Shown: in pieces, positions 6,720 to 50,454 of the stretch | Layout: every line of letters starts with the position of its first letter | Numbering within the stretch: the first letter of the stretch is position 1 | NCBI GenBank assembly: GCA_022574775.1 | Contig: JACZRI010000005.1 | Location: 1 to 52,471 of the forward strand | DNA from: Patescibacteria group bacterium | GTDB lineage: Bacteria; Patescibacteriota; Minisyncoccia; Minisyncoccales; RBG-13-36-15 | DNA: 52,471 nt | Direction of reading: 5' to 3' | The notes under the pieces: generated by a model | What the model saw: the letters and a program-made list of their open reading frames with translations, nothing else | What the model was told of the DNA's origin: nothing | Database searches by the model: none | Made by a program: the position numbers and the translations under genes

Positions 6720-6773
6720 ATGGATTTAATGTCAAAAATCGTTTCTCTAACCAAAAGACGCGCCGCCCGGTAG
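6720..6773 (+). pseudogene. Truncated duplicate of the glyQS N-terminus (MDLMSKIVSLTKRRAAR*)
   Basis: Aligns to TLMEKIISLCKRR of the downstream GlyRS and ends within a GC palindrome. Confidence 0.65.
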
Positions 6774-6789
6774 GGCGAGCCTCGCCTCT
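6760..6789. repeat. GC palindrome, family A (ggcgagcctcgcctct)
   Basis: The same core occurs at 36351-36366 in pth, with variants at 50065 and 38912. Confidence 0.75.
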
Positions 6790-6840
6790 TTTAGAACCTG
6801 TACTATGCAAAGAAATTATTTAAAAGGTCAACTTACTCTG

Positions 6841-8190
6841 ATGGAAAAAATAATAAGCCTATGCAAGAGGCGGGGATTTATTTTTCCTTCTTCTGAAATT
6901 TACGGAGGAATTGAGGCTTTGTGGGATTATGGCCCTTTGGGTTCTCTTTTGAAAAATAATATTAAGAAAGAGTGGCTTAAAAGGTTCGTTCAGGAGAAAG
7001 AAGATGTTGTTTTGATTGATGGGACCGTTTTAATGAATCCAAAAATCTGGGAGGCTTCCGGTCACCTTAAAAGCTTTACCGATCCTTTAGTGGAGTGTAA
7101 AAATTGTCATTCGAGATTTCGAGCAGATCATATGGAAAACGGCAGTTTTGTTGGCGAGGACAAGGCAAAATCGAAAAACCAGTGCTCGCAATGCGGCGGG
7201 AAAAATTTTACTCCTCCCAAGAATTTTAATTTAATGTTTAAGACTTTTTTAGGGCCGGTTGAGGACAAAGCCAGCATAACTTATTTGCGGCCAGAGACTG
7301 CCCAATCAATGTTCACAGATTTTAAGCTTGTCCAGGAGTCACAGCGCTTGAAAATTCCTTTTGGAATTGCTCAAATCGGGCGCTGTTTTAGAAATGAAAT
7401 TACCACGGGCAATTTTATTTTTCGCTCTCGCGAATTTGATATTGCTGAAATTGAATATTTTGTTGAGCCTGGCAAAGATGAAAAATGGTTTGATACGTGG
7501 CTTAACGAATGGGAAAAATTCTTTTTAGATTTGGGTTTAAGAAAAGAAAATCTCCGTCGCTATGAACATCCGAAAAAATCACTCGCTCATTACTCAAAAC
7601 GAACAGTGGATATTGAATATAAATTCCCTTTTGGGTGGGGAGAGCTGGCAGGAGTGGCTAATCGTACAGATTATGATTTAAAAAACCACAGTGAGTTTTC
7701 CGGACAGGATTTAAGTTATTATGATGAGGAGAAAAAAAAGAAATATTATCCTTATGTAATAGAGCCGACAGTTGGGATAGAAAGAATACTTTTGGCTGTT
7801 TTATGTGATGCTTATACTGAAGTGAAGGGCGGAAGAACGAAAACCACGACAGCTGTTAAAGAGGTTGAAATTGTGCTCAAGCTTGATAGAAAATTAGCGC
7901 CAATAAAAGTTGCTGTTTTACCCTTAGTAAAAAATAAACCGGGATTGGTGAAAAAAGCCAAAAAGGTTCATCAATTATTAAAATCTCATTTTGATTGTCA
8001 ATATGACGAATTAGGCTCTATTGGCAGAAGGTACCGCAGGCAGGATGAAATCGGTACCATCTTTTGTCTTACAGTGGATTTTGATAGCTTAAAACAAGAT
8101 GATTTAACCGTCAGGGATCGCGATACAATGAAACAAAAGAGGGTGAAAATTAATGAGTTGGTTGAGCATTTGAAAAAGAAATTGGCGTAA
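6841..8190 (+). CDS. glyQS: Glycine--tRNA ligase (alpha2 type)
   Basis: KRRGFIFPSSEIYGG, YLRPETAQ, FRNEIT, YVIEP, IGRRYRRQDEIGT; alternative start at 6805. Confidence 0.97.
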   Translation: MEKIISLCKRRGFIFPSSEIYGGIEALWDYGPLGSLLKNNIKKEWLKRFVQEKEDVVLIDGTVLMNPKIWEASGHLKSFTDPLVECKNCHSRFRADHMENGSFVGEDKAKSKNQCSQCGGKNFTPPKNFNLMFKTFLGPVEDKASITYLRPETAQSMFTDFKLVQESQRLKIPFGIAQIGRCFRNEITTGNFIFRSREFDIAEIEYFVEPGKDEKWFDTWLNEWEKFFLDLGLRKENLRRYEHPKKSLAHYSKRTVDIEYKFPFGWGELAGVANRTDYDLKNHSEFSGQDLSYYDEEKKKKYYPYVIEPTVGIERILLAVLCDAYTEVKGGRTKTTTAVKEVEIVLKLDRKLAPIKVAVLPLVKNKPGLVKKAKKVHQLLKSHFDCQYDELGSIGRRYRRQDEIGTIFCLTVDFDSLKQDDLTVRDRDTMKQKRVKINELVEHLKKKLA

Positions 8191-8290
8191 AATATAATAT
8201 GAGAAAAAGCCGTACTTAATTAAATCAAAATGACTAAACCCTAATAGCCAAAAATCTTAGATAATTCGAATAGGTATTAGAGAAATCCAA

Positions 8291-8319
8291 AAAATGGCTC
8301 ACTGAAGCGAGCCATTTTT
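8291..8319. terminator. Intrinsic terminator after glyQS
   Basis: aaaatggctc-actgaagc-gagccattttt. Confidence 0.75.
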
Positions 8320-8377
8320 GTTTATTTGAAAAGTTGGTATAATAACAGAATAACAATTTCAGTCCATTAAATGATCC

Positions 8378-8468
8378 GCATTTTTTCGCGTAGCTACCTG
8401 TCCCTCAACGGTTTGAGCCGTAAGGCGATGGCGGGTGGATCCGCGTCATTTCGCTTCTACGGAGAATG
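8378..8468. repeat. Nested palindrome in the 5' region of the M16 peptidase (family B copy at 8396-8439)
   Basis: acctgtccctcaacggtttgagccgtaaggcgatggcgggtgga aligns to the metG insert at 13184-13226. Confidence 0.75.
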
Positions 8469-9731: not shown

Positions 9732-9733
9732 CC

Positions 9734-10804
9734 ATGAATGACAACAGGGTTTTAGATATTTCTTGGACAAGTATTTTAAAGGTTGGGGTAGCAGCCGTTT
9801 CTTTTTATATACTATATTTAGTTAGGGATATTTTAATCTGGTTTATTTTTGCTCTCATTATTTCTATTTTATTCAGTCCTGTAATTGATTTTCTGCACAG
9901 AAGAAGAATTCCTCGGGTATTATCAGTTATTATCGTGTATGTCGGAACTTTTGCGGCAGTCAGTTTATTTATTTATTCAATTACGCCCATTTTTATTTAT
10001 GAAGTCCAAAAATTTTCTCAAATTTTTCCTGAATACTTTGAAAAAATCTCTCCTTCTCTAAAAGCCCTTGGAATTCAGGCATTTGTGGATATAGAAAGTT
10101 TCATTGGACTCGTCAATAAATCTTTAGAGGCAATAGCCGCTAACATTCTCTCTGCTGCTTTCGTAATTTTTGGCGGTATTTTTTCAACAATTTTTGTTTT
10201 GACTGTGGCGATTTTTATCTCTTTGGAAGAAAAAGCAGTAGAAAGAACATTATCTCTTCTTTTCCCGAAGAAATACAAGGCATACGCTTTTAATCTCTGG
10301 CAGAGGTCTCAAAAAAAGGTTACTGGTTGGTTTTTGACAAGGGTTTTAGCTTCGTTATTCGTTGGAGGAGCCTCCTATTTTGCCTTTTTGATTCTTGATG
10401 CCAAATATCCTTTTTCTATGGGATTGTTAGCGGGAGTGCTGAATTTCGTTCCCATTGTCGGACCTATCATTACTGGATTTTTAATTTTTATATTAGTTTC
10501 TTTAGAAAACACGTTGAGGGCAATTTTTGTTTTAACAGCCTTTATTTTGATTCAGCAAATTGAAAATAATATTCTCACCCCGATTTTAACGAAAAAATTT
10601 GTTAATATTCCTCCCGTTTTAGTTTTAGTCTCGCTTGTGGTCGGTGGAAAACTTTTAGGATTTCTTGGAGCGCTTTTGGCAATTCCCATAGCAGGCATCC
10701 TGTTTGAGTTTATAAGAGATTTTCTCAAAGAGAGAAAAGACTATAATTCATCCGAGGACGAGGTGTCTGGTTACTCGAGAACGCCTCGTTTCCCAACCTC
10801 ATAG
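9734..10804 (+). CDS. AI-2E (PerM) family transporter
   Basis: Multiple TM helices; LNFVPIVGP, QQIENNILTP, GALLAIP. Confidence 0.92.
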   Translation: MNDNRVLDISWTSILKVGVAAVSFYILYLVRDILIWFIFALIISILFSPVIDFLHRRRIPRVLSVIIVYVGTFAAVSLFIYSITPIFIYEVQKFSQIFPEYFEKISPSLKALGIQAFVDIESFIGLVNKSLEAIAANILSAAFVIFGGIFSTIFVLTVAIFISLEEKAVERTLSLLFPKKYKAYAFNLWQRSQKKVTGWFLTRVLASLFVGGASYFAFLILDAKYPFSMGLLAGVLNFVPIVGPIITGFLIFILVSLENTLRAIFVLTAFILIQQIENNILTPILTKKFVNIPPVLVLVSLVVGGKLLGFLGALLAIPIAGILFEFIRDFLKERKDYNSSEDEVSGYSRTPRFPTS

Positions 10805-10862
10805 GAGTGCAGAATTCTGGTTCGAATCCTGCGCTCTTAATCTCATCCGCCTATCAGCGGAC
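10755..10862. repeat. Palindrome cluster at the AI-2E 3' end, including T-loop-like repeat copy 2 (10803-10840)
   Basis: gacgaggtgt..acgcctcgtt hairpin; ggagtgcag-aattctggttcgaatc-ctgcgctcttaa; tccgcctatcagcgga. Confidence 0.7.
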
Positions 10863-10894
10863 TGACACTGAAAAATCAACAGTACTCTGAAATC

Positions 10895-10978: not shown

Positions 10979-11710
10979 ATGGGTATTCTTTATATCACAG
11001 CTACCCCTATAGGTAATCTTAAAGATATCAGCCTCCGAGCTCTAGAAATATTAAAGGGGGTTGATTTAATTTTATGTGAGGATACGAGGATGACAAAGAG
11101 ATTATTAGAAAGATATAATATAAAAACGCCGACTCTAAGCTACCATCAGCATTCCAAACTAAATAAAGTAAAGTATATTATAAGTATTTTAAAAAAGGGC
11201 AAGAGTTTAGCTCTAGTTTCAGATTCAGGAACACCAGGGATATCTGACCCGGGAGAAAAATTAATCAGTGAGGCAACGAAACAATTGAGCGCTGTAAAAA
11301 TTATTCCAATTCCAGGACCCTCAGCCGTAGCCACAGCGGCTTCAATCTCTGGTTTTCCTATGGATAAATTTTTATTTTTGGGTTTTCCTCCAACTAAACG
11401 AAAAAGAAAGAAATTCTTTGAAGAAGTTTTGAGATCAAAATATCCTGTAATTTTTTACGAATCTCCCCATCGTATTATTAAAACTCTTAAAGAGCTTGAC
11501 TTAGAAGCCAAAATCTACTTATCTGCTAGTCGCCTTCTTCACTCCAGGCGATGGCAGGCGGGTAACCTAGTACCTAAAATAGTCGTTTGCAGAGAGTTAA
11601 CCAAGAAATTTGAAACAATTTATCGTGGAGAGATAGAAGCAGTGATAGAAAAAATTGAAAAAGATAAAATAAAAGGAGAATTTGTTGTGATTGTAGAAGG
11701 AAAAACGTAA
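10979..11710 (+). CDS. rsmI: 16S rRNA C1402 2'-O-methyltransferase
   Basis: LYITATPIGNLKDIS.RAL, CEDTR, SDSGTPGISDPG, YESPHR, RELTKKFE, KGEFV. Confidence 0.96.
   Translation: MGILYITATPIGNLKDISLRALEILKGVDLILCEDTRMTKRLLERYNIKTPTLSYHQHSKLNKVKYIISILKKGKSLALVSDSGTPGISDPGEKLISEATKQLSAVKIIPIPGPSAVATAASISGFPMDKFLFLGFPPTKRKRKKFFEEVLRSKYPVIFYESPHRIIKTLKELDLEAKIYLSASRLLHSRRWQAGNLVPKIVVCRELTKKFETIYRGEIEAVIEKIEKDKIKGEFVVIVEGKT
11518..11563 (+). repeat. Family B palindrome in-frame within rsmI
   Basis: ctgctagtcgcct-N10-aggcgatggcaggcgg; the 16-mer is identical to the metG insert; encodes LSASRLLHSRRWQAG. Confidence 0.8.
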
Positions 11711-11743
11711 GGTTTAATTAAAGCTACAATTGTGTTAAAACAA

Positions 11744-12006: not shown

Positions 12007-12057
12007 CACGCCTCCTTATTTTTGAGTACTTTTTGAACTTAGAAATTTTCATAACTT

Positions 12058-13572
12058 ATGTTAAGCAAAAATAAAAAGTTTTATATTACAACAAGTATAG
12101 TTTATACGAATGCTTCTCCCCATATAGGTTTTGCATTAGAATCTATCCAGGCTGATGTGATTGCTCGATATCAACAGATTTCAGGTAAAGAGGTTTTCTT
12201 TTTAACTGGGACGGATGAACATGGCGCAAAAGTAGCCAAAGCAGCAGAGGAAGAAAAGAAAGAATCAAAGGAATTTGCTGATAAAATTTCACGAAAGGTT
12301 AGAAGTTTTAAGAAAATTTTAAATCTTTCTAATGATGATTTCATTCGTACCACTGATCAAAAAAGGCACTGGCCAACGGTAAAAAAAGTTTGGTTAAAAT
12401 TAAAAGAGAATGGCGATATATACAAAAAGCAATACAAAGGGCTTTACTGCCCTGGCTGCGAAACCTTTATTACAAAAAAAGACCTGAAGGATAAAAAATG
12501 TATTATTCATAAAAAGAAACCTGAAATAATTGAAGAAGAGAATTATTTCTTTAGGCTGTCAAAATACTCGAAAAAAATCGAGAAAATTATTGCAGAAGAT
12601 AAAATTCACATAATCCCTAAGACCCGTAAAAAAGAAATTCTAAACTTTGTTCAACATGGGTTGGAAGATATCAGTTTTTCCCGTCCCAGAAAAGATTTAA
12701 AATGGGGGATTCCTGTACCTGATGATAAATCTCATACCATTTATGTATGGAGCGACGCGCTTGTAAACTATATCTCAGCTCTTAGTTATTCGAAAAATAG
12801 CAAAAAATTTCAAAAATTTTGGCCAGCTGACGTACATTGTATTGGTAAGGATATATTAAAATTTCATGGAGCAATTTGGCCGGGAATGCTTTTATCTCTT
12901 GGGTTGCCATTGCCAAAGACAATATTTGTCCATGGGTTTATTACTGTTGATGGCCAGAAAATGTCCAAATCTTTAGGTAATATTATCAATCCTTTTGAGC
13001 TAGTTAGAAAATACGGAACTGATTCGGTAAGGTATTTTCTTTTAAGGGAAATTCCTTCAACCGAGGACGGAGATTTCACATACCGGAAATTTGAGCAAAG
13101 ATATAATGCTGATTTAGCGAGTGGATTGGGGAATTTGGTAGCTCGGATTTTAACATTGGCCGAAAGATTAGCCATAAAACAATACCTGCCCGCCAGCGGA
13201 TTGAGTCGCAGGCGATGGCAGGCGGATAATCATAAAGCAATAGAACCAGAGATTGACAAAGTTTGGAGAGATTATAAAAAAGCCTTAGATGAATTTAAAT
13301 TTAACAAGGCATTGGCTGCAATTTGGAAATTAATTAGCTTTTGCGACAAATATATTGAGAAAGAAAAACTCTGGAAACAAACGAAAAATCAACAATCAAA
13401 AATTAATAATTTACTATTTGCTTTAGCTCACATCGCTCATTTACTAAAACCATTTTTACCGGAGACCTCGGAGAAAATATTAAAACAATTAGGAATAAAA
13501 TTAATTGAAAAGAAACCTTGGAAATTTAAAATTAAAAAAAGAAAATCCCTTTTCCCCAGATTTAACTCTTAA
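12058..13572 (+). CDS. metG: Methionine--tRNA ligase
   Basis: FYITT..Y.N..PHIG, GTDEHG, YVWSDALVNY, IGKDILKFH, KMSKSLGN. Confidence 0.97.
   Translation: MLSKNKKFYITTSIVYTNASPHIGFALESIQADVIARYQQISGKEVFFLTGTDEHGAKVAKAAEEEKKESKEFADKISRKVRSFKKILNLSNDDFIRTTDQKRHWPTVKKVWLKLKENGDIYKKQYKGLYCPGCETFITKKDLKDKKCIIHKKKPEIIEEENYFFRLSKYSKKIEKIIAEDKIHIIPKTRKKEILNFVQHGLEDISFSRPRKDLKWGIPVPDDKSHTIYVWSDALVNYISALSYSKNSKKFQKFWPADVHCIGKDILKFHGAIWPGMLLSLGLPLPKTIFVHGFITVDGQKMSKSLGNIINPFELVRKYGTDSVRYFLLREIPSTEDGDFTYRKFEQRYNADLASGLGNLVARILTLAERLAIKQYLPASGLSRRRWQADNHKAIEPEIDKVWRDYKKALDEFKFNKALAAIWKLISFCDKYIEKEKLWKQTKNQQSKINNLLFALAHIAHLLKPFLPETSEKILKQLGIKLIEKKPWKFKIKKRKSLFPRFNS
13184..13226 (+). repeat. Family B palindrome in-frame within metG
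   Basis: acctgcccgccagcggattgagtcgcaggcgatggcaggcgga, encoding LPASGLSRRRWQAD. Confidence 0.85.
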
Positions 13573-15895: not shown

Positions 15896-18427
15896 ATGGC
15901 CTACAACTCCCCTCGTAAAGTAGCCTCTGCGGCGACCACGAGGCAACTAAAAAAATATAATCCACAAAGGATAGAAAGGAAATGGCAGAGAGTTTGGGAG
16001 AGAGGAGATTTTTACCGCGCCAAAGATTTATCTAAAAAGCCAAAAAGCTATATTTTGGTTGAATTTCCCTATCCATCGGGTGACGGGTTGCATGTTGGAC
16101 ATTGCCGAAGCTATGTTGCCTTAGATATTGTTGCAAGGAAAAGAAGGATGGAGGGATTGAATGTTTTATTTCCGATGGGCTGGGATGCTTTCGGACTTCC
16201 AACGGAGAACTATGCGATTAAGACAGGAATTCATCCAAGAATTGTCACCAAGAAAAACACTGCTTTTTTCAAACGCCAAGAAAAAAGCTTAGGGCTTTCT
16301 TTTGATTGGAGCAGGGAAATCAACACTACCGACCCTGCTTATTATAAATGGACTCAATGGATATTTATTCAGCTTTTTAAAAAGAATTTAGCTTATAAGG
16401 CAAGGATTCCAATTAATTGGTGTCCTGACTGTAAGATTGGTTTGGCTAATGAAGAGGTGATTGATGGCCGATGTGAAAGATGCGGCAAGAGGGTTACAAA
16501 AAAAGAAAAAGAACAGTGGATGCTAAAAATCACAAAGTACGCAGAAAGATTAATTAAAGATTTAGAAAAAGTTGATTATCCAGAGAGGGTGAAAGCTTTA
16601 CAGAAAGATTGGATAGGGAAATCAGAAGGAACAACCATCAAATTTCAAATTTCAAATTTCAAATTTCAAATTGATGTATTTACTACAAGAGCCGATACTT
16701 TATTTGGCGCGACTTTTTTAGTGCTTGCTCCAGAGCATCCTGCAATCGAAAGTCTGAAGTCAAAAATAAGGAACTATAAGTTTGTGGAAAGATATATTAA
16801 AGAAGCGAGAAAGAAGACAGAAAAAGAGAGAATAATCGAGATAAGAAATAAAATAGGAGTAGAGATAAAAGGGATAAAAGCAGTTAATCCGGTGAATAAT
16901 CGGGAAATTCAAATTTTTATTGCAGATTATGTCTTGCTGCACTATGGAACCGGAGCCATTATGGCAGTTCCAGCCCATGACCAGAGAGACTTGAATTTTG
17001 CCAAACAATATAATCTTTCCATCATAGACGTTATTAAACCAATAGAATCTAGGAGTTATCCTTCGACAAGCTCAGGATCCCGAGCAGCGTCGAGGGATAA
17101 GTTAAAGTCTGATCAGGCATATGAAGGGGAGGGAGTATTAATCAATTCTGGCAGATTTAATGGAATGAAATCAGATGATGCTAAAAAAAGGATTGTTGAG
17201 TGGCTGGCAAGAGATGGAAAGGCAAAAAGAGCGGTCAGTTACAAATTAAGAGACTGGATTTTTTCTCGCCAGCGGTATTGGGGCGAGCCGATTCCAATGA
17301 TAAAATGTCAAAAATGCGGCTGGTTGTCAGCACCGGAAAAGGATTTACCAATTGAATTACCGCGAGTTAAAGAATATAAACCAACTGAAAAGGGAGAATC
17401 TCCCTTAGTAAAAGTTAAAAGTTGGGTTAACACCAAATGCCCAAAGTGTAATAGCCCAGCAGAAAGAGAAACTGATGTTATGCCAAACTGGGCTGGTTCT
17501 AATTGGTATTATCTTAGATACTGCGATCCTCGAAACAAAAAAAGCATATTCAGTCAAAAATTGCTTAAATATTGGATGCCGGTTGATTGGTATAACGGAG
17601 GAATGGAGCATGCCACATTACATTTATTATATTCCCGTTTTATCTATAAATTTCTATGGGATATTAAAGCAGTGCCAAGGTCTCTCGGGGTTGAACCCTA
17701 TAAAAAGAGAACCTCTCATGGAGTGATTCTTGGCGAGGGGGGAATCAAGATGTCTAAATCCAAGGGTAATGTTATAAGTCCAGAACAAGTTATAAAAGAG
17801 TATGGCGCAGATACCTTGAGAATCTATGAGATGTTTATAGGGCCATTTGAGCAAACAATTGCCTGGGATGCAAAAGGGATAAAAGGAGCGAGGAGATTTT
17901 TAGAGAGGGTTTGGAGATTAGCCGGTCAATTTTTTGTTACTCAAAACTCTCAAAGTTCCCCCGATCTAAAAAAATTATTCCACAAAACAATAAAAAAAGT
18001 TTCAGAAGATATTGAGTCTTTGAAATTTAATACTGCCGTAAGCTCATTGATGGAATTCTCTAATGCTTGGCAGGCAGATAGAAGAGGAGGATTAGGAAAA
18101 AAAGATTTTAAAGATTTCTTAAAAGTTTTATCACCTTTTGCCCCTCATTTAACACAAGAACTTTGGGGAAAGATAGGTTTTAAGAGCAGTATTCATAATG
18201 AAAAATGGCCAAAATATGACCCAACATTAATCAAAGAAGAAATCGCGACCTTTATTGTTCAGGTGCAAGGCAGAGTCCGAGGGAAGATTGAAGCTGAAAT
18301 AGAAATTCCTGAAGAAAAACTTAAAAAACTAGCCCTATCACAAGAAAAAATCAAAAAATGGATTATAGGAAAAAAGATTAAAAAAACAATATTCATTCCG
18401 GGAAAACTTATTAACTTTGTGCTTTAA
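15896..18427 (+). CDS. leuS: Leucine--tRNA ligase
   Basis: FPYPSG.GLHVGH, MGWDAFGLP.EN, FTTRADT, GTGAIMAVPAHDQRD, KMSKSKGN. Confidence 0.97.
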   Translation: MAYNSPRKVASAATTRQLKKYNPQRIERKWQRVWERGDFYRAKDLSKKPKSYILVEFPYPSGDGLHVGHCRSYVALDIVARKRRMEGLNVLFPMGWDAFGLPTENYAIKTGIHPRIVTKKNTAFFKRQEKSLGLSFDWSREINTTDPAYYKWTQWIFIQLFKKNLAYKARIPINWCPDCKIGLANEEVIDGRCERCGKRVTKKEKEQWMLKITKYAERLIKDLEKVDYPERVKALQKDWIGKSEGTTIKFQISNFKFQIDVFTTRADTLFGATFLVLAPEHPAIESLKSKIRNYKFVERYIKEARKKTEKERIIEIRNKIGVEIKGIKAVNPVNNREIQIFIADYVLLHYGTGAIMAVPAHDQRDLNFAKQYNLSIIDVIKPIESRSYPSTSSGSRAASRDKLKSDQAYEGEGVLINSGRFNGMKSDDAKKRIVEWLARDGKAKRAVSYKLRDWIFSRQRYWGEPIPMIKCQKCGWLSAPEKDLPIELPRVKEYKPTEKGESPLVKVKSWVNTKCPKCNSPAERETDVMPNWAGSNWYYLRYCDPRNKKSIFSQKLLKYWMPVDWYNGGMEHATLHLLYSRFIYKFLWDIKAVPRSLGVEPYKKRTSHGVILGEGGIKMSKSKGNVISPEQVIKEYGADTLRIYEMFIGPFEQTIAWDAKGIKGARRFLERVWRLAGQFFVTQNSQSSPDLKKLFHKTIKKVSEDIESLKFNTAVSSLMEFSNAWQADRRGGLGKKDFKDFLKVLSPFAPHLTQELWGKIGFKSSIHNEKWPKYDPTLIKEEIATFIVQVQGRVRGKIEAEIEIPEEKLKKLALSQEKIKKWIIGKKIKKTIFIPGKLINFVL
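16638..16672 (+). repeat. Perfect heptamer tandem repeat (TCAAATT)x5 inside leuS
   Basis: Read directly; encodes KFQISNFKFQI. Confidence 0.9.
17056..17100 (+). repeat. Family C (cttcgacaagctcag) palindrome in-frame within leuS
   Basis: 45-bp ttatccttcgac...gtcgagggataa; 24 nt identical to 21989-22012. Confidence 0.85.
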
Positions 18428-21988: not shown

Positions 21989-22090
21989 AGTTATCCTTCG
22001 ACAAGCTCAGGACACTTCAACTCTACAAGTTATTCAAAAGGATACTTGCACTGAGCGAGGATTGAGCGTAGCGAAGGACGAGTCGAAGTG
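21989..22090. repeat. Composite family C palindrome abutting the kinase start
   Basis: agttatccttcgacaagctcagga; cacttcaactc (22013-22023) pairs with gagtcgaagtg (22080-22090). Confidence 0.8.
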
Positions 22091-23031
22091 TGAAAAAAGA
22101 AAATATCAAATATGTAATTGGAGTAGATGGCGGAGGTACAAAAACAATTGCTGCTTTGGCTGATTTAAGAGGAAGGATTTTGAGCCAGAGTAAAAGTGGT
22201 TCTTCTAACCCGAGAAATATTGGGATAAAAAGAGCAGTTTTAAATATAACTAAAGCTGTTAATCCGCTTTTTAAGAGAAAAGGGATAATTGTCTCAACGG
22301 TCATTACTTTGCCAGCTATTGAGGAAGAATACCAAGATAAGAAAAAAGATATTTTAAAGCTTTTACGCATTCAAAGAAAAATTTCTAAAATTTTTAAGGG
22401 AAAAATAAAAATAAACAGTGATCAGTTAGCTGCATTCAGAGCAGGAACAGACGAAAAAGACGGAATTATACTAATTGCTGGTACAGGTTGTGTTGCTCAC
22501 GGTTGGAGAGGCAGGAAAGAGGCGAAAGCGAGCGGCTGGGGTTGGTTGGCAGATAGAGGATCTGCTTTTTGGGTAGGCCAGAGGGTTTTCCAAGCGGTTT
22601 TAAAGGATTTAGATAAAAGGGGAGAGAAGACACTTCTTACCAGGTTAGTTTTCCAAGAACTTAAAACAAAAAATATAAACGATTTCCTGAAAAAAATTTA
22701 TTCAAGAAACCCAACTACAATTATTCCTCGCATTTCTATTGTCTGCGATAAGGCGATACAAAAAGGAGATAAGATTGCCAAAAAAATAATGATTGAGGCA
22801 GGAAAAGAGGTTGCTTTAGATGCAAAAACAATAATTTATGAGCTTAATTTTCAAAAAACAAAATTTACTCTAGTTCTGGCCGGCAGTATGTTTAAAACAA
22901 AAACCTTTTTAGAAACAGTTAAAAAAAATATTAGCAAATCAATACCGAAGGCAAAATTTATAAGACTAAAAAAGGGACCGGTTACTGGCGCAGTAAAATT
23001 AGCTTTGGAACAAGTAAATATTAACTTTTAA
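22090..23031 (+). CDS. BadF/BadG-type ATPase, probable N-acetylglucosamine/MurNAc kinase
   Basis: IGVDGGGTKT, LIAGTG, GWGWLAD.GSAFW.G. Confidence 0.85.
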   Translation: MKKENIKYVIGVDGGGTKTIAALADLRGRILSQSKSGSSNPRNIGIKRAVLNITKAVNPLFKRKGIIVSTVITLPAIEEEYQDKKKDILKLLRIQRKISKIFKGKIKINSDQLAAFRAGTDEKDGIILIAGTGCVAHGWRGRKEAKASGWGWLADRGSAFWVGQRVFQAVLKDLDKRGEKTLLTRLVFQELKTKNINDFLKKIYSRNPTTIIPRISIVCDKAIQKGDKIAKKIMIEAGKEVALDAKTIIYELNFQKTKFTLVLAGSMFKTKTFLETVKKNISKSIPKAKFIRLKKGPVTGAVKLALEQVNINF

Positions 23032-35954: not shown

Positions 35955-36614
35955 TCACTGATTATATTTTTGCCGAGCTTTTTCTATTCCTTCTTTAATT
36001 ATCATTTCAATTACGAGAAAACTTTTTTTAATAATTTCTTTTATTTTTCCCTCCTCTTTTTTGTTAAATTTTTCGAGAACAAATTTATCTACACCTTTTG
36101 GTTTAAAATCTTGAGGGCAAATTCCAATTCTTACTCTGATAAAATTTTTCGTTCCCAATTCCTTGATTATTGATTCAACTCCTTTGTGACCGGCTGATCC
36201 TCTGTCAATTGAGATTCGAACCGTTCCCAAGGGTAAATCGATGTCGTCGTGTACTACAATTAAGCTTGTATTTTGCCGCCTTTGGCGTCGCCCCTGGCGA
36301 ATCTCGCCAACGGCGGGAGTCTCGCCTCTGGCGGGTATCTTGCCGCCCTTGGCGAGCCTCGCCTCTGGCGGGTATCTTGTAGTCAGGGATTTTACTGCTT
36401 TGCCAGAATTATTCATAAAGGTTTCTGGGAGGGCAAGGATTATTTGTTTTTTATCAAGCACTCCTTTTGAAATAAGGGCATTGAGCCTTTTTTCGATTCT
36501 GAAATCTAAAAAGCGAGATGCCAGTTGCCAACTGTTTATTACCAGCCTGCCAATGTTATGACGAGTATTTTGAAATTTTTTTCCTGGGTTACCTAAGCCT
36601 ACGATTAAAAACAT
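35955..36614 (-). CDS. pth: Peptidyl-tRNA hydrolase
   Basis: LIVGLGNPG, TRHNIG, PETFMNNSG, VVHDDIDL, AGHKG, RVRIGI. Confidence 0.96.
   Translation of the reverse strand: MFLIVGLGNPGKKFQNTRHNIGRLVINSWQLASRFLDFRIEKRLNALISKGVLDKKQIILALPETFMNNSGKAVKSLTTRYPPEARLAKGGKIPARGETPAVGEIRQGRRQRRQNTSLIVVHDDIDLPLGTVRISIDRGSAGHKGVESIIKELGTKNFIRVRIGICPQDFKPKGVDKFVLEKFNKKEEGKIKEIIKKSFLVIEMIIKEGIEKARQKYNQ
36275..36379. repeat. Tandem/nested family A palindromes in-frame within pth
   Basis: ctcgcctctggcgggtatcttg occurs twice; encodes PPEARLAKGGKIPARGETPAVGEIRQGRRQRRQ. Confidence 0.9.
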
Positions 36615-36696: not shown

Positions 36697-37452
36697 ATGC
36701 GGAATATTCTATCTTTTTTTGAAAGAAAAAAAGCAGAAAAGGGTCGGGGAAAATGGATGTTTGCCCGTGTAGAAAAACAGGCTTCCGCCACCCGCTTCGC
36801 CTCGTTTTCGCCGAGGCGAGAAGACGGAAACGTTAGAAACCGAGAGATGTCTAATGAGCGAAGCGAAGCGAATGAAGTGAGCGCCAGAACTCCGTTCTGG
36901 AAAAGCTGCGCGACTTTTATATGGGAAATTTCAAAAATTATTATTATTGCCTTAGTAATTGTTTTACCAATCCGATATTTTTTGTTTCAACCATTTATTG
37001 TGAGAGGGGCTTCTATGGAACCTAATTTTCATAATGGAGACTATCTTATTATTGATGAATTTTCCTATCGATTTTCAAATCCAGAAAGAGGAGAGGTCAT
37101 AGTTTTCAAAAATCCGAAAAATCTTTCCCAGAAATTTATCAAAAGAATTATTGGTCTTCCCGGAGAAACAATCCAGATAAATGAGGGCAAAGTAATTATT
37201 TTTCAGGATGATGAAGCACAGGTTTTAGATGAATCTTCCTACATATCTGAATTTACTGAAACTCCAGGGGGTCTTACGGTTTCTTTGGCTGAAAATGAAT
37301 ATTTTGTTCTGGGAGACAACAGATTTGCGTCTTTTGACTCTCGGAGATGGGGAGAACTGCCTAGGGAAAATATTATAGGGATGGTGTTTTTTCGGGCTTG
37401 GCCTTTTTCTGCTTTAGCTAAGGTTGAAACACCTATTTATCTAAATCCATAA
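36697..37452 (+). CDS. lepB: Signal peptidase I
   Basis: GASMEP, IKRIIGLPGE, YFVLGDNR..S.DSR. Confidence 0.95.
   Translation: MRNILSFFERKKAEKGRGKWMFARVEKQASATRFASFSPRREDGNVRNREMSNERSEANEVSARTPFWKSCATFIWEISKIIIIALVIVLPIRYFLFQPFIVRGASMEPNFHNGDYLIIDEFSYRFSNPERGEVIVFKNPKNLSQKFIKRIIGLPGETIQINEGKVIIFQDDEAQVLDESSYISEFTETPGGLTVSLAENEYFVLGDNRFASFDSRRWGELPRENIIGMVFFRAWPFSALAKVETPIYLNP
36781..36885. repeat. Palindromic inserts in the lepB 5' coding region
   Basis: tcgcctcg-ttttcgc-cgaggcga hairpin and a gagcgaagcgaagcgaatgaagtgagcg run. Confidence 0.65.
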
Positions 37453-37457: not shown

Positions 37458-38870
37458 ATGGAAGAATATAGAGGAAGAAGAAAAAAAGGTTATCAGACGC
37501 CTACTGGAATGCATGACGTCTTGCCTCAGGATCAAAGGTATTTCCAAAAAATTTATAATATCTGCGAGAATATCGTCAGTTTTTACGGTTTTCAAAAAAT
37601 AGAAACTCCCATTGTGGAAACAGCTGAGCTTTTTTCAAAAGGAATAGGTCTGGCGACTGATATCGTGGAAAAGCAGATGTATGTTTTTAGAACGAAGGGA
37701 GGGGATTGGTTGGCTTTAAGGCCAGAGGGGACAGCTTCTGTTGTGAGAGCTTTTATTGAGCATGGTATGCAAAGCCTTCCCAAGCCTGTAAAACTTTGGT
37801 ATTTCGGCCCATTTTTCCGTTATGAACATCCCCAAGCAGGAAGGTTTAGACAATTTCACCAATTCGGTTTTGAAGCTTTTGGAGAAAAAAGCCCGGTAAT
37901 GGATGCACAGATTGTTCAAGTTTTTTATAATATCTTAAAAGAGCTCCGTTTCGACAAATTGGTTGTTGAGGTGAATAATATTGGAGACTCTCAATGCAGG
38001 CCTTATTATAAGAAACTTTTAGTCAGCTATTTGAAATACCGGTTAGGTGGCTTTTGTGCAGTCTGTAGGCAGAGGGCAAAGGAAAATCCATTGAGAATTT
38101 TCGACTGTAAAGAAGAAAAATGTCAAAGGATAAAAGCGCAGGCTCCCCAGATAATTGACCATTTGTGTGAAGAATGCCATAATCATTTTAGAGAATTTTT
38201 AGAATTTTTAGATGAATTAGAACTTCCCTATAATTTGAACCCTTATTTGGTTAGAGGATTGGATTACTATACGAAAACTGTTTTTGAAATTTTTTCCACA
38301 TCCACTGAAAACTTTAATTCTTCGCAACAAGATTCAGAATATCCTCCGAAACTTTATACGAAGGAGGATGGTGGATCCGCTGAAACTCCGCTAAAATTGA
38401 GCGAGGAAGGAGAAAAAGGATATACTTCAAAAGATGCCCTCGTTGGCGGCGGGAGATACGACAACCTTTGCAAAATTTTAGGAGGAGAGCCAACTCCAGC
38501 TTGTGGTGGAGCTGCAGGTATAGAAAGGATAGTTAAGGCTATGAAACAGAGAACCCCGAAGTTGCCACAACCGCAGTTGCCAAAAGTATTTATGGCTCAA
38601 CTGGGAAATTTGGCAAAACGGAAAAGCCTTAAGCTTTTTGAAGAATTTAGGAAAAACCGAATTTCAGTAGCTGATTCTTTTGGCAGAGATGATTTGAAAG
38701 CCCAGCTGAAAGCATCGGACAGAATTGGGGTTCAGCTCACTCTTATTTTAGGACAGAAGGAAGTTCTGGAAGGAACTATTATTATTAAGGATATGAAAAC
38801 TGGCAGACAAGAAACAGTGAAATTAGAGAAGATAATAAAAGAGGTGAAAAAGAGACTCAAGAAAGCCTGA
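37458..38870 (+). CDS. hisS: Histidine--tRNA ligase
   Basis: LRPEGTA, FRYEHPQAGRFRQFHQ, LVRGLDYY, GGGRYD. Confidence 0.97.
   Translation: MEEYRGRRKKGYQTPTGMHDVLPQDQRYFQKIYNICENIVSFYGFQKIETPIVETAELFSKGIGLATDIVEKQMYVFRTKGGDWLALRPEGTASVVRAFIEHGMQSLPKPVKLWYFGPFFRYEHPQAGRFRQFHQFGFEAFGEKSPVMDAQIVQVFYNILKELRFDKLVVEVNNIGDSQCRPYYKKLLVSYLKYRLGGFCAVCRQRAKENPLRIFDCKEEKCQRIKAQAPQIIDHLCEECHNHFREFLEFLDELELPYNLNPYLVRGLDYYTKTVFEIFSTSTENFNSSQQDSEYPPKLYTKEDGGSAETPLKLSEEGEKGYTSKDALVGGGRYDNLCKILGGEPTPACGGAAGIERIVKAMKQRTPKLPQPQLPKVFMAQLGNLAKRKSLKLFEEFRKNRISVADSFGRDDLKAQLKASDRIGVQLTLILGQKEVLEGTIIIKDMKTGRQETVKLEKIIKEVKKRLKKA
38341..38369. repeat. Degenerate family D hairpin within the hisS loop insertion
   Basis: atcctcc-gaaactttatacgaa-ggaggat resembles the topA outer element. 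Confidence 0.55.
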
Positions 38871-38879: not shown

Positions 38880-38946
38880 TCTGCCGTTTTTTGCGAGTCT
38901 CTCCCGCCCAAGGCGAGGTTCGCCAGAGGCGACGCCTCTGGCGGGA
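38880..38946. repeat. Family A palindrome, intergenic
   Basis: Reverse complement of 38902-38936 matches iscS 50053-50087 at 33 of 35 positions. Confidence 0.88.
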
Positions 38947-38985
38947 ATACCTGAAGACCTTTTCTTTTCGTTTCTTCGTACTTCA

Positions 38986-41258: not shown

Positions 41259-41786
41259 ATGGCTTTGAAAGAAAAAATTACAGCTGATTTAAAAGACGCC
41301 TTAAAAGGAAAGAAAGAGCTTGAAGTTTCGGTTTTAAGAATGCTTTTGGCTGCTATTTTGAATAAAGAAAAAGAAAAACGGGCAAAATTAGCTAAAGAGG
41401 AAGAAGGACTGAAAGAAGAAGAATTAGCGAAAAAGAGCCAGCTTACCGATGAGGAAATGCTTGAGGTTGTTTCCTCGGAAGCAAAAAAAAGAAAAGAAGC
41501 TATTGAGGGGTTTTCCGCTCTAGGCGGACCCGCCTCGGACGGGGAGAAAGATAAAATAGAGAGGTTTATCAATAAAGAGAAGCAGGAATTAGAAATTCTT
41601 AAAGAGTATCTGCCAGAACAATTATCACAAGAAAAAATTAAAAAATTGGCTCAAGGAGCTATTGAAAAAGTCGGGGCTACCTCGTTAAAAGATATAGGAA
41701 AAGTAATGGCAGATCTTATGCCGAAAGTTCAAGGAAAAGCAGATGGAAATACGGTTTCTAAAATAGTCAAAGAATTTTTAAGTTGA
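41259..41786 (+). CDS. GatB/YqeY domain protein
   Basis: DLKDALK, KKRKEAIE, YLPEQLS, GKVM...MPKVQGKADG. Confidence 0.92.
   Translation: MALKEKITADLKDALKGKKELEVSVLRMLLAAILNKEKEKRAKLAKEEEGLKEEELAKKSQLTDEEMLEVVSSEAKKRKEAIEGFSALGGPASDGEKDKIERFINKEKQELEILKEYLPEQLSQEKIKKLAQGAIEKVGATSLKDIGKVMADLMPKVQGKADGNTVSKIVKEFLS
41514..41543 (+). repeat. Double mini-hairpin in-frame within yqeY
   Basis: tccgctctaggcgga-cccgcctcggacggg, 30 bp, encoding SALGGPASDG. Confidence 0.7.
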
Positions 41787-46010: not shown

Positions 46011-46020
46011 AGAATTTCTG

Positions 46021-46053
46021 TTAAGAGCGCAGGATTCGAACCCTGCGCTCCTT
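46021..46053 (-). repeat. T-loop-like hairpin repeat, copy 3
   Basis: gagcgcagg-attcgaac-cctgcgctc; reverse complement of the 10819-10840 arm. Confidence 0.75.
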
Positions 46054-46071
46054 CTGTGTTATACTAATAAA

Positions 46072-48239: not shown

Positions 48240-48249
48240 AAGTTTTACT

Positions 48250-48327
48250 CACTTAAACATCTGAACATTTTAACATTTAGATATATTTGGATGTTTATAT
48301 GTTTATATGCTTAAATGCTAATATGCT
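48250..48327. repeat. Inverted array of degenerate 8-nt repeats
   Basis: ttaaacat-ctgaacat-tttaacat ... atgtttat-atgtttat-atgcttaa-atgctaat-atgct; the last unit supplies the GT2 ATG. Confidence 0.7.
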
Positions 48328-49204
48328 GTCAATAATTATTCCAACTCTTAACGAAGAAAAGTATCTTCCTTTATTACTGAACTCTATTAAGGAGCAGAAT
48401 TTTAAGGATTACGAGATTATCTTGTCCGATGCGGGTTCTGAAGATAGAACGATAGAGATTGCAAAAAGTTACGGGTGTAGAGTTGTAAAAGGAGGTTTGC
48501 CTGCAAAAGGAAGAAATCAAGGGGCTCGAGTAGCTAACGGAGATTTGCTTTTGTTCTTAGATTCTGACACATTGCTTCCAGAAGGTTTCTTAAATAGGGC
48601 GTTGCAGGAGTTTACCGAAAGGGGTTTGGATGTAGCAGGATGCGGACTTGAACCAATCCAAGAAGAGTGGATGCCAAAGTTTCTTTTTCCAAAATTTGGC
48701 TATGATCTTTTCTATAATTGGCCGGCCAGGTTTTTAGAGGGTGTATTTCCTTATGCAGCCAGCCTTTTCTTGGTTAAAAGAGAAATAAATGAACGATTGG
48801 GAGGGTTTGATGAAACTATAAAAATTTCCGAAGATCATAGTTATGTGCGAAGAGCATCCAAAATTGGCAAGTTTGGTATTTTAAAGTTTTCAAAACTCCC
48901 ACTTTTTTTAAGAAGATTTCAAAAAGAAGGCATTATGAAAACTGGTTTAAAATATATTTTCTGCAATCTTTTTAATATTTCCCTGGGTGACGTGAGAACT
49001 AATATTTTTAACTACAATTTTGGGCAGTACAAACAGATAGTTTCCACAGGGGAGAAAAATTCTAAAAAACCAAACTTTTTACTGCAGTTTTTATGGATTA
49101 TTACAGGTTATGCTATTGTTGTTTTTGGTTTGATTACTTGGTTGCTAATTTTTCTGATTTTTTCTCCGAAACTTATTGCTGTACGGTTTAAGAAAAATAA
49201 CTAA
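48323..49204 (+). CDS. Glycosyltransferase family 2
   Basis: LSIIIPTLNEE, DAGSEDRT, GRNQGA, FLDSD, GGFDE, SED. Confidence 0.92.
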   Translation: MLSIIIPTLNEEKYLPLLLNSIKEQNFKDYEIILSDAGSEDRTIEIAKSYGCRVVKGGLPAKGRNQGARVANGDLLLFLDSDTLLPEGFLNRALQEFTERGLDVAGCGLEPIQEEWMPKFLFPKFGYDLFYNWPARFLEGVFPYAASLFLVKREINERLGGFDETIKISEDHSYVRRASKIGKFGILKFSKLPLFLRRFQKEGIMKTGLKYIFCNLFNISLGDVRTNIFNYNFGQYKQIVSTGEKNSKKPNFLLQFLWIITGYAIVVFGLITWLLIFLIFSPKLIAVRFKKNN

Positions 49205-49221
49205 ATACAATCCTAAAAAAC

Positions 49222-50454
49222 ATGGAAAAACAAATTTATTTAGATTATGCGGCAACCACTTCTATTGATCCCAAGGTTTTGGAGAAAATGATGCCTTATC
49301 TAAAGGCTGACTATGGCAATCCTTCTTCCATTTATACTTTGGGGCAAAAATCTTTAGCTGCAATTGATGAGGCTAGAGAAAGCATATCTCGATTTTTAGG
49401 ATGCCAGTTTTCTGAAGTTGTTTTCACGGGATCTGCCACTGAAGCCAATAATTTAGCCGTTTTTGGAGTAATCCGCCTTTGCCAAGGCTTTGGCGGACAA
49501 GTAAAAAATAGAAACCAAAAATTACATATTATTACTTCAAAAATAGATCATCATTCTGTTTTGGAGCCTTTCCAGGTTTTAAAAAAGAAAGGAGTTGAGA
49601 TAACATATCTTCCAGTAGACAGGGCGGGATTAATTAGTATATCTGATTTAGAAAAAGCTCTTTTGCCAGAAACGGTCATGGTTTCCATAATGTATGCCAA
49701 CAATGAAATCGGCACTATTCAACCCATCGCTGAAATCGGCAAAATACTAAAAGCTAAAAGCTCAAACCTGAAAGCTAAAATATATTTCCATACTGATGCT
49801 GTCCAGGCTGCAAATTATTTGGATTGTAACGTCAATCGTCTTGGAGTTGATCTCTTGACTTTAAGCGCCCACAAGACTTATGGGCCAAAAGGAGTAGGGG
49901 CTCTTTTTGTGAAGGAAGGAGTAGAAATTACGCCCTTAATTTTCGGCGGGGGTCACGAATTTGGATTTAGGTCGGGAACTGAGAATGTGGCAGGTATTGC
50001 AGGTTTTGGGAAAGCGATTGAAAAAGTGGGAAACCTGAAGCCTGCTGCTTCTGGCGTTGCCTCTGGCGAGCCTCGCCTTGGGCGGGAAGTAGAAAGAATA
50101 AAAAAATTACGAGACAGATTAATTAGTGAGATTTTGAAAAATATTTCTGGCTCAAAGCTTAATGGTTCTTTGGAGCATCGGCTTCCAAATAATACAAACT
50201 TTTCCTTTAAAGGAATAGAGGGTGAGAGTTTGGTTATTGCTTTAGATCAAGAAAGAATAGCAGTTTCCACAGGATCTGCTTGTTCCGCGAAAACTTTAAA
50301 GCCATCTCATGTTCTTTTAGCCTTAGGATTGTCTGAAAAGGAGGCTTTGTCTTCTCTGCGATTGACGCTTGGCAGGTACACTACAACAAAGGAAATTGAG
50401 ACTACTTTAAAAGTTTTGCCAAAAATTGTTGAAAGATTGAGAAAAATATCTTAA
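49222..50454 (+). CDS. iscS: Cysteine desulfurase (IscS/NifS group I)
   Basis: YLDYAATT, ANNEIGT, HTDAVQ, SAHK.YGPKG, STGSACS. Confidence 0.94.
   Translation: MEKQIYLDYAATTSIDPKVLEKMMPYLKADYGNPSSIYTLGQKSLAAIDEARESISRFLGCQFSEVVFTGSATEANNLAVFGVIRLCQGFGGQVKNRNQKLHIITSKIDHHSVLEPFQVLKKKGVEITYLPVDRAGLISISDLEKALLPETVMVSIMYANNEIGTIQPIAEIGKILKAKSSNLKAKIYFHTDAVQAANYLDCNVNRLGVDLLTLSAHKTYGPKGVGALFVKEGVEITPLIFGGGHEFGFRSGTENVAGIAGFGKAIEKVGNLKPAASGVASGEPRLGREVERIKKLRDRLISEILKNISGSKLNGSLEHRLPNNTNFSFKGIEGESLVIALDQERIAVSTGSACSAKTLKPSHVLLALGLSEKEALSSLRLTLGRYTTTKEIETTLKVLPKIVERLRKIS
49472..49501 (+). repeat. Family D palindrome in-frame within iscS
   Basis: tccgcctttgccaaggctttggcggacaag, 30 bp, colinear with the topA inner element. 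Confidence 0.85.
50041..50087 (+). repeat. Family A palindrome in-frame within iscS
   Basis: Encodes PAASGVASGEPRLGRE; matches 38902-38936 reversed. Confidence 0.88.

What the first reader, a model, noticed from the sequence alone, without database searches (positions are those of the whole stretch)
6760..50087. Short palindromic elements inserted in-frame into many conserved genes, adding new peptide loops
Seen: at least four sequence families of GC-rich hairpins about 30-100 bp long stand out from the AT-rich background. They occur between genes (6760, 8396, 21989, 38880) and inside intact reading frames: rsmI 11518, metG 13184, leuS 15908 and 17056, topA 30683, pth 36275, lepB 36781, hisS 38341, yqeY 41514, iscS 49472 and 50041. 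Where the ends are clear the lengths are multiples of 3 (30, 30, 30 and 45 bp). Unrelated proteins carry the same foreign peptide, for example RRWQA in both RsmI and MetG. Known precedent: Rickettsia palindromic elements (RPEs) and REP/REPIN elements spread by HUH tyrosine transposases. Inference: a non-autonomous mobile system with several families is adding sequence to surface loops of core proteins at high density (about 11 coding inserts in 52 kb). The mobilising enzyme is not in this window.
Basis: partly seen in the sequence, partly recalled or inferred. Interest (0 to 1): 0.85.

Follow-up and report, generated by a model that had tools for sequence, protein, structure and literature searches.

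The report
Hairpin elements inserted inside essential genes
A tiny, AT-rich bacterial genome carries several families of short palindromic DNA elements that sit between genes and, in frame, inside housekeeping genes, where they add extra peptide loops; Rickettsia and a few other bacteria are already known to do this.

Summary
The window is a whole contig of a 0.70 Mb, about 36% GC genome. Stable hairpins are about six-fold over-represented genome-wide (682 vs 119 windows at -16 kcal/mol or lower).

The iscS 49472 site is not supported. Four repeat families are real. yqeY, hisS, the leuS N-terminus and topA have no second copy in this genome.

Evidence for mobility:
- The same 13-nt core sits in different genes in G000-G004.
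- One 30-nt unit is nested exactly inside another in pth.
- A contig from another study, about 97% identical in the flanks, lacks the 198-nt lepB insert.

The genome holds one Y1/HUH RAYT-like transposase, outside the window. Its own hairpin family flanks it and interrupts it in frame. Homologues occur in 18 of 31 related genomes (G000 counted), each with its own flanking hairpin. None is flanked by the GC-rich families, so their mobiliser is unproven.

Verdict: intragenic REP/RPE-like elements, a new member of a known kind, apparently in Patescibacteria.

The parts
6760..6790 (.). Intergenic hairpin with the exact family-1 core, followed by a T run (terminator-like)
8396..8448 (.). Intergenic GC-rich hairpin region. 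It is a singleton with a 14-of-16 match to the 3' arm of family 2. The spacer is 276 nt here and about 11 nt in G001.
10753..10796 (+). Hairpin (-18.5 kcal/mol) that encodes the last 14 residues of the AI-2E transporter gene. Found only in G000.
11521..11567 (+). In-frame extra segment in rsmI that carries the 3' half of family 2 (the RRWQA peptide)
13186..13227 (+). 42-nt family-2 hairpin in frame in metG (14 aa), between the catalytic and anticodon-binding domains. Absent from 13 of 13 relatives.
15896..15955 (+). N-terminal extension of leuS with a hairpin. The start codon used by G001 and G002 is missing here. Singleton.
17047..17096 (+). Family-4-related hairpin inside a variable loop of the LeuRS editing domain
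21994..22092 (.). Full intergenic copy of family 4, a long imperfect hairpin of about 78-99 nt
30690..30750 (-). topA segment of about 14-17 aa, shared with G001 only (1 of 13 relatives). G002 has its own 28-aa insert beside it. No second copy in G000.
36275..36334 (-). 60-nt family-1 block in pth: one 30-nt unit (36287-36316) nested inside another
36342..36371 (-). Single 30-nt family-1 unit in pth, lying between two heptamers that G001 also has. No target duplication.
36718..36915 (+). 198-nt family-3 composite inserted after codon 7 of lepB, with the frame open throughout. Absent from G001, G002 and a contig of run X3.
38295..38402 (+). 36-aa insert in hisS, found only in G000. AT-rich, modest hairpin (p 0.025), singleton.
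38902..38951 (.). Intergenic family-1 copy downstream of hisS, 94% complementary over 35 nt to the iscS copy
41514..41543 (+). Exactly 30-nt GC-rich hairpin insert in yqeY (10 aa), found only in G000. Singleton.
50041..50087 (+). Family-1 copy in frame in iscS. G001 has it at the same site with 18 nt more. Absent from 6 other relatives.

Best explanation
These are short, non-autonomous palindromic mobile elements of the REP/RPE type, in several families. Family 1 is a 30-nt unit, family 2 is 42 nt, family 3 is a multi-hairpin element of about 110-200 nt, and family 4 is a long hairpin of about 78 nt.

The genome is about 88% coding, so most insertions land in genes. Copies survive when their length is a multiple of three, the frame in use has no stop codon and the site is a tolerant loop or a protein end. 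They are then translated as extra peptide.

The most likely mobiliser is a single-strand-DNA, hairpin-recognising Y1/HUH transposase of the RAYT type acting in trans. It would insert without target duplication next to a short target motif. For family 1 that motif is often the boundary of a GTAG-containing heptamer.

Shown: the repeats, their absence from orthologues, different sites in different genomes, nesting, one empty site in a near-identical strain, and the presence and architecture of a RAYT-like gene.

Inferred: translation of the inserts, the link between this enzyme class and the GC-rich families, and the target rule.
For: Over-representation.

Families.

Absence from orthologues.

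Mobility:
- The family-1 core occurs 6 times in G000, 11 in G001, 5 in G002, 1 in G003 and 7 in G004, with 0 reversed-pattern control matches in those five genomes.
- 19 of 20 such sites in G001-G004 lie in long ORFs, mostly different genes.
- In pth, the two outer halves joined match a single unit at 28 of 30 positions.
- An X3 contig skips 36688-36915, with 9 differences over 308 flanking nt.
- G001 has the same four heptamers in pth without the hairpins, so there was no target duplication.
- In GatA, G000 and G002 carry the hairpin at different heptamer boundaries of one array.

Enzyme:
- PF01797 scores 41.7 bits against a cut-off of 23.
- The HUH histidines and two tyrosines are invariant in 21 homologues.
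- A profile of these homologues matches ISDra2 transposase chains.
- The gene is flanked by its own hairpin family and interrupted by it in frame.
- All 10 relatives' loci inspected show a lineage-specific hairpin near both ends of the gene, as read by eye.
- 37 of 66 public loci show the same.
- No PF01609, PF00665 or PF01385 match was found in the genome.

Tolerance: in the Pth model the insert is a low-confidence coil between two well-modelled elements.
Against: - None of the RAYT-like loci fetched (G000, 11 relatives, 80 public) contains the family-1 core.
- No RAYT homologue was found in G001 (98% complete), yet it has the most family-1 copies.
- NCBIfam's RAYT model scores 50.4 bits, below its cut-off of 80. 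No solved RAYT was hit at E 0.01 or lower.
- yqeY, hisS, the leuS N-terminus and topA have no second copy in G000.
- Genome-wide, only 3 of 42 period-7 arrays lie next to a stable hairpin. The heptamer target rule therefore rests on a handful of family-1 copies.
- Families 3 and 4 look more like classical MITEs.
- No RNA or protein data were available.
Confidence: 0.6

Rival explanations
1. The elements are classical MITEs, moved by a DDE-type transposase that recognises terminal inverted repeats and duplicates its target.
For: Families 3 and 4 are 78-200 nt long with inverted-repeat-like ends. Imperfect 7-8-nt direct repeats flank many family-1 and family-2 copies.
Against: No PF01609 or PF00665 match was found in a genome rated 100% complete. 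In pth the flanking heptamers already exist in G001, so they are not a duplication. Only these two DDE families were searched.
Confidence: 0.13
2. The singleton hairpins (yqeY, hisS, leuS N-terminus and many G002 inserts) arise locally by replication errors, such as template switching at quasi-palindromes or slippage, and not by transposition.
For: These inserts have no second copy in G000. Half of all single-genome indels are hairpin-forming in each of three genomes. Period-7 microsatellites are frequent, which points to slippage-prone replication.
Against: Both arms of the hairpin lie inside the inserted segment in yqeY and in the G002 and G001 examples. Template switching should copy an arm from pre-existing neighbouring sequence. 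Similar hairpins occur in different genes of G001 and G002. This rival does not explain families 1 to 4.
Confidence: 0.15
3. The segments are old, native variable loops kept for a function of the DNA or RNA hairpin, such as a terminator, an RNA-stability element or a protein-binding site, and are not mobile.
For: Shared copies in iscS and YchF are about 90% identical between G000 and G001. Whole-gene identity is 73-76% and third-position identity 53-60%. The intergenic copy at 6760 looks like a terminator.
Against: Most sites are empty in most relatives. The same sequence sits in unrelated genes. One unit is nested in another. A near-identical strain has an empty lepB site.
Confidence: 0.05
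4. The inserts are not translated. They are skipped by the ribosome, as with the GC-rich 'byps' of a yeast mitochondrion, or removed from the RNA.
For: They are GC-rich hairpins in coding regions of an AT-rich genome, flanked by short direct repeats. This resembles byps, which I cite from memory (Lang et al. 2014, not seen here).
Against: Every insert whose ends could be fixed is a multiple of three and open in the gene's frame: 30, 30+60, 42, 108 and 198 nt. All 38 genes aligned three ways align with both orthologues, the criterion being over 60% of query length, and none is seen split at a hairpin.
Confidence: 0.03
5. The inserts are assembly artefacts.
For: None found.
Against: Logan contigs of run X1 cover the pth and lepB inserts with 0 differences. 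X1 may be the source run, so this is a different assembler but not independent data. Orthologous copies exist in other genomes.
Confidence: 0.01

Closest known systems
Rickettsia palindromic elements (RPEs; Ogata et al. 2000, seen here only as described and cited in passages of PMC10969869)
   Same: Several families of palindromic repeats in a reduced, AT-rich genome. They are inserted in frame into many unrelated housekeeping genes, add a conserved peptide and are judged compatible with the protein fold.
   Different: RPEs are about 150 bp according to that review, whereas the main unit here is 30-42 nt. No sequence relation was tested. The host appears to be a patescibacterium and not an alphaproteobacterium. 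A hairpin-flanked Y1 transposase is present in this genome.
Intragenic REPs and REP/RAYT systems (Di Nocera et al. 2013, PMC3733652, passages read; Nunvar 2010 and Bertels and Rainey 2011 seen as search listings only)
   Same: Palindromes of 20-40 nt occur in several families per genome. A Y1 transposase gene is flanked by its own palindromes. Intragenic copies encode 10-30 aa, singly or as grouped units. A GTAG motif lies beside many family-1 copies.
   Different: REPs are mostly extragenic. Family 1 here lies in ORFs at 10 of 12 sites in G000 and 19 of 20 in its relatives. The GC-rich families do not flank the transposase gene. The enzyme scores below NCBIfam's RAYT cut-off.
IS200/IS605 Y1 transposition (ISDra2 TnpA, PDB 2XM3 and related chains)
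   Same: The protein profile matches across the HUH region. Insertion leaves no target duplication and occurs beside a short motif, and the element ends are hairpins.
   Different: The elements carry no transposase. The mechanism is inferred and was not tested.
Mitochondrial GC clusters and 'byps' of yeasts (recalled; only search listings seen)
   Same: GC-rich mobile hairpins inside coding regions of an AT-rich genome.
   Different: As I recall, byps break the frame and are bypassed. Here all the inserts keep the frame.

Membership tests
REP/RAYT system (REPtron) | A Y1/HUH tyrosine transposase gene of the IS200-like superfamily | tested here: met
   G000:C1:152453-153163 scores 41.7 bits on PF01797 (cut-off 23). 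HUH histidines H90 and H92 and tyrosines Y116 and Y149 are invariant in 21 homologues. The profile matches ISDra2 TnpA chains at E 0.002. NF047646 scores 50.4 bits, below its cut-off of 80.
REP/RAYT system (REPtron) | The transposase gene is flanked by copies of the palindrome it is associated with | tested here: met
   Met for the AT-richer hairpin family that flanks the gene: two copies upstream, one overlapping the stop codon and one in frame inside the gene. All 10 relatives' loci inspected show a hairpin near both ends, as read by eye, as do 37 of 66 public loci.
REP/RAYT system (REPtron) | The GC-rich families in the window (1-4) are the palindromes that flank a RAYT gene | tested here: not met
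   The family-1 core is absent from every RAYT-like locus fetched: L094, L096-L107 and L115-L194. Families 2 to 4 were not seen beside the G000 gene.
REP/RAYT system (REPtron) | A GTAG (or CGTC) tetranucleotide tag at one end of the palindrome (PMC3733652) | tested here: inconclusive
   Heptamers containing GTAG or GTAT abut roughly half of the family-1 copies inspected in G000-G002. The others are followed by GAAG-type flanks. This was not quantified against a control.
REP/RAYT system (REPtron) | Predominantly extragenic location | tested here: not met
   Family 1 lies inside ORFs at 10 of 12 nhmmer hits in G000 and at 19 of 20 core sites in G001-G004. Coding fraction is about 0.67-0.92 per contig.
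Rickettsia palindromic elements | Sequence membership in one of the described RPE families | not tested
   No RPE sequence was available from a tool. Only the mode of insertion was compared.
Rickettsia palindromic elements | In-frame insertion into many unrelated genes, with a conserved encoded peptide | tested here: met
   Near-identical 12-residue peptide variants, read in the same frame of family 1, occur in ArgRS, GatA, Pth and an unnamed ORF. RRWQA occurs in RsmI and MetG.
MITE (DDE-mobilised) | Target-site duplication made on insertion | tested here: not met
   In pth, G001 has the same four heptamers without the hairpin blocks. This is the only site where the point could be resolved.
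Translational bypass elements (byps) | Inserts that break the frame or carry stop codons and are skipped | tested here: not met
   All resolved inserts are multiples of three and open in frame.

The most novel reading that the evidence does not exclude
Family 1 may be a REP-like element that has shifted to living inside genes. Its unit is 30 nt, a multiple of three, and has no stop codon in any of the six frames. It lands at the boundaries of GTAG-containing heptamer microsatellites that themselves lie in coding regions. It has persisted across genera, with the palindrome more conserved than synonymous sites. If so, hairpin insertion would be a main source of new loops in the proteins of these ultra-small bacteria, since half of the lineage-specific insertions of at least 8 aa in 38 genes are hairpin-forming. 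The same may hold across Patescibacteria, where the hairpin-flanked Y1 transposase family is common.
Probability: 0.3. Interest if true: 0.7.

Novelty: new member of a known kind. Interest (0 to 1): 0.55.

Why it matters
The RPE phenomenon, in which selfish palindromes are tolerated and translated inside essential genes, is not peculiar to Rickettsia. It also shapes proteins in a free-standing lineage with a very small genome, apparently Patescibacteria.

The genome offers a tractable pairing: a single-copy Y1 transposase with its own flanking hairpins, alongside older GC-rich families. This could be used to test how such elements choose targets and why coding insertions are tolerated.

There is also a practical point. 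These inserts inflate apparent protein divergence and can mislead alignments, domain calls and start-codon annotation in metagenome-assembled genomes.

Four literature searches found no paper linking REP/RAYT or in-frame palindromic inserts with this phylum. Only the listed top results were inspected, and the library is incomplete.

Tried and rejected
- A 24-nt GC-island scan was too unspecific (424 observed against 256-280 simulated). I replaced it with folding energies.
- A perfect-stem hairpin scan missed the bulged family-1 hairpins.
- TnpB-type domains: PF07282 gave only a sub-threshold 17.4 bits and PF01385 gave nothing.
- GIY-YIG: there are two genes, one a 424-aa ORF and one a 120-aa ORF. 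Neither was examined for flanking hairpins.
- phmmer of the transposase against PDB sequences found nothing.
- Heptamer arrays as a general landing pad: only 3 of 42 arrays lie within 15 nt of a stable hairpin, against about 4% expected. The idea is kept only for family 1.
- No RNA holder was listed for the stretch, so nothing can be said about expression.
- Contigs of X2 and X4 covered only parts of the stretch. Parts without cover are not evidence.
- In one search my coordinates for the iscS and intergenic units were offset by 3 nt. Those sub-comparisons are not used; only the pth nesting result is.
- PMC6006769 has no occurrence of the patescibacterial terms I searched for.
- Supplementary files of papers are closed. 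Additional file 3 of PMC3733652, the list of intragenic REPs, could not be seen and may hold closer precedents.
- A second structure prediction and complex prediction were not used.
It does not come from a marker-gene tree.

Full report
SETTING. The window is the whole of contig C8 of a 702,600-base genome in 10 contigs, with 35-38% GC. The genome is rated 100% complete, and the relatives held are 0.3-0.9 Mb. There is no same-genus relative. G001-G003 are in the same family and the rest in the same order. The window is colinear with G001:C6 plus C28 and with G002:C1, which allowed three-way alignments of 38 genes. The closest homologues of the genome's Y1 transposase carry mostly Patescibacteria record titles. 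That is my only basis for the phylum name.

- In 40-nt sliding windows, 682 fold at -16 kcal/mol or lower, against 119 in a first-order Markov simulation. At -20 kcal/mol or lower the counts are 167 and 8.
- Merged, these windows make 264 loci: 114 inside my ORF calls, 12 at ORF edges and 138 intergenic.
- The window holds 22 such loci. Of the 13 in or at ORFs, 8 coincide with segments that orthologues lack.
- Only one tRNA and no other Rfam family lies in the window.

SITE BY SITE. Gene names are from Pfam.
- pth carries 90 extra nt, absent from 29 of 29 aligned relatives.
- metG carries 42 nt, absent from 13 of 13.
- rsmI carries an extra segment absent from 8 of 8 informative relatives.
- yqeY carries exactly 30 nt, absent from G001 and G002.
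- lepB carries 198 nt after codon 7. G001 and G002 run straight from the conserved N-terminus into the membrane anchor.
- hisS carries 36 aa found only in G000, but the segment is AT-rich.
- The iscS insert at 50041 is shared with G001 and absent from 6 others.
- The topA segment is shared with G001 and absent from 12 others, and G002 has its own insert beside it.
- leuS 17056 lies in a loop that differs in all three genomes.
- leuS 15908 is an N-terminal extension.
- iscS 49472 is only a variable loop, with no hairpin and no repeat.
- I add one site: a hairpin that forms the C-terminus of the AI-2E transporter gene.

FAMILIES.
- Family 1 is a 30-nt bulged hairpin. nhmmer gives 12 hits in G000, 10 of them inside ORFs: ArgRS (two), GatA, a pseudouridine synthase, the DNA polymerase III delta-prime-like subunit, YchF, an unnamed ORF, Pth (two) and IscS.
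- Family 2 is 42 nt, with full copies in metG and in a PMT_2 membrane protein and a half copy in rsmI.
- Family 3 is a multi-hairpin element. The lepB insert is a complete copy with an extra nested hairpin. Its two modules occur in 11 of 31 related genomes, with 20 pieces in G001.
- Family 4 is a long hairpin of about 78 nt, mostly intergenic. It includes 21994-22092, and a short variant sits in leuS. It matches in 6 of 31 genomes.
- yqeY, hisS, the leuS N-terminus, topA and the spacer at 8396 have no second copy in G000.

EVIDENCE FOR MOBILITY.
(a) The 13-nt family-1 core occurs in G000 (6 sites), G001 (11), G002 (5), G003 (1) and G004 (7), and as singles in 4 other genomes. It is absent from 22 of the 31 genomes. 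The reversed-pattern control gives 0 in those five genomes.
(b) Of 20 such sites fetched from G001-G004, 19 lie in open frames of at least 137 aa, and 18 have a G000 homologue. Most are in genes that carry no copy in G000.
(c) Three sites are shared. YchF and IscS are shared between G000 and G001. GatA is shared between G000 and G002, but there the hairpin sits at a different heptamer boundary of the same array and is read in a different frame.
(d) In pth a 30-nt unit interrupts another. The two outer halves, joined, match the neighbouring single unit at 28 of 30 positions.
(e) A 338-nt contig of run X3, from another study, aligns to both sides of the lepB insert with 9 differences in 308 nt. 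It skips 228 nt and has 27 other letters in their place, which encode an uninterrupted N-terminus like that of G001. With G001 and G002 as outgroups, the simplest reading is a recent insertion in the G000 lineage.
(f) Contigs of X1, which may be the source run, reproduce both inserts with 0 differences.

THE PHENOMENON IS NOT CONFINED TO G000. In 38 genes aligned three ways there are 26 internal insertions of at least 8 aa present in one genome only: 8 in G000, 5 in G001 and 13 in G002. Thirteen of them fold better than 95% of their own shuffles, against 40 of 342 random 54-nt coding segments. G009, in another family, has a 26-aa insert in Pth at a different site. It folds at -38.3 kcal/mol, against -16.2 ± 3.1 for shuffles.

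THE ENZYME. The genome has one PF01797 (Y1_Tnp) match, a 236-aa gene on contig C1. NCBIfam's RAYT model is its best hit but scores below cut-off. The gene is preceded by two copies of an AT-richer 31-nt palindrome and followed by one that overlaps the stop codon. It carries a further copy in frame within its own coding sequence.

Homologues occur in 18 of 31 genomes, counting G000. In all 10 relatives' loci I inspected, a lineage-specific hairpin lies near both ends of the gene, as read by eye. In the public collection 193 stretches encode a relative. Of the 66 kept loci with full flanks, 37 have the same perfect-stem hairpin on both sides. Two histidines of an HUH motif and two tyrosines are invariant in 21 homologues. 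The profile matches ISDra2 transposase chains across the HUH region. The naming of one of these tyrosines as catalytic is from memory.

No PF01609, PF00665 or PF01385 match was found in the genome.

WHAT LINKS THE ENZYME TO THE WINDOW'S FAMILIES, AND WHAT DOES NOT. For: the pth insertions left no target duplication, since G001 has the same four heptamers without them. Many family-1 copies abut heptamers that contain GTAG, the tag of RAYT-associated REPs according to PMC3733652. Against: no RAYT-like locus holds the family-1 core. G001 has 11 copies but no detected homologue. Heptamer arrays mostly stand alone. I therefore put the general reading (mobile REP/RPE-like palindromes) at about 0.85 and the specific mobiliser at about 0.45. 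The combined statement gets 0.6.

WHY CODING COPIES SURVIVE.
- The family-1 unit is 30 nt long and has no stop codon in any of its six frames. At about 77% GC that has roughly even odds by chance (my estimate), so GC-richness alone explains it.
- Family 2 and the yqeY insert do have stops in unused frames.
- Three frames of family 1 are in use. One of them gives near-identical 12-residue peptide variants in four proteins.
- In the AlphaFold model of Pth (mean pLDDT 89.1), the insert is a coil at residues 81-117 with pLDDT about 50-62. It lies between a helix and a strand that are modelled at above 90. Only this protein was modelled.
- For lepB and leuS the real start codon could lie inside or after the insert. 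In lepB there are in-frame ATG and GTG codons at residues 51 and 61, so translation of the whole insert is not certain.

COMPARISON WITH WHAT IS KNOWN. In-frame palindromic inserts are documented for Rickettsia RPEs (passages of PMC10969869). They are also documented for intragenic REPs in Opitutus terrae, R. conorii and others (passages of PMC3733652). This case is the same kind of thing in new families and in a new host lineage. It differs from typical REPs in that family 1 is not depleted from coding sequence. Four literature searches found no paper joining these topics with Patescibacteria.

VERDICT. This is a new member of a known kind, of moderate interest.

Noticed in passing
window 16638-16672 (leuS), 42071-42090, 49747-49766 (iscS); genome-wide: Tandem arrays of 7-nt units are over-represented: 42 arrays, against 6, 16 and 12 for periods 5, 6 and 8 and none for periods 9-11. 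They use a small set of related units, and 20 of them lie inside ORFs even though 7 is not a multiple of 3.
   Followed up: partly
window 1-209, 10801-10844, 46013-46064: The contig starts inside a repeat of about 300 nt, copies of whose parts lie at several other loci in the genome. Shorter hairpins that resemble a tRNA T-arm recur in intergenic spacers (24 pieces in cluster 1). ARAGORN calls none of them a tRNA.
   Followed up: no
G000 contigs C2, C3, C6, C7, C9 (not in the window): There are 23 exact copies of a terminator-like hairpin with A and T runs. They are clustered in a few regions together with other repeated modules.
   Followed up: no
G000:C1:152453-153163 (locus L094 1285-1995): The RAYT-like transposase gene is itself interrupted, in frame, by a copy of the hairpin that flanks it.
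   Followed up: yes
window 34928-35479: A 183-aa ORF has no counterpart in the syntenic regions of G001 or G002. It lies in the most GC-rich kilobase of the window (0.446) and holds three GC islands at 35213-35345, so it may be acquired DNA.
   Followed up: no
locus L003 (G009 pth): A relative from another family has a 26-aa in-frame insert at a different position in Pth, and it forms a very stable long hairpin.
   Followed up: partly
pth, window about 36372-36392 and orthologues in L002, L003, L004, L006: The stretch of pth that received the hairpins is itself a run of three to four heptamer repeats in four different families of the order, although the protein length there equals that of relatives without heptamers, such as L005 and L008.
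   Followed up: no
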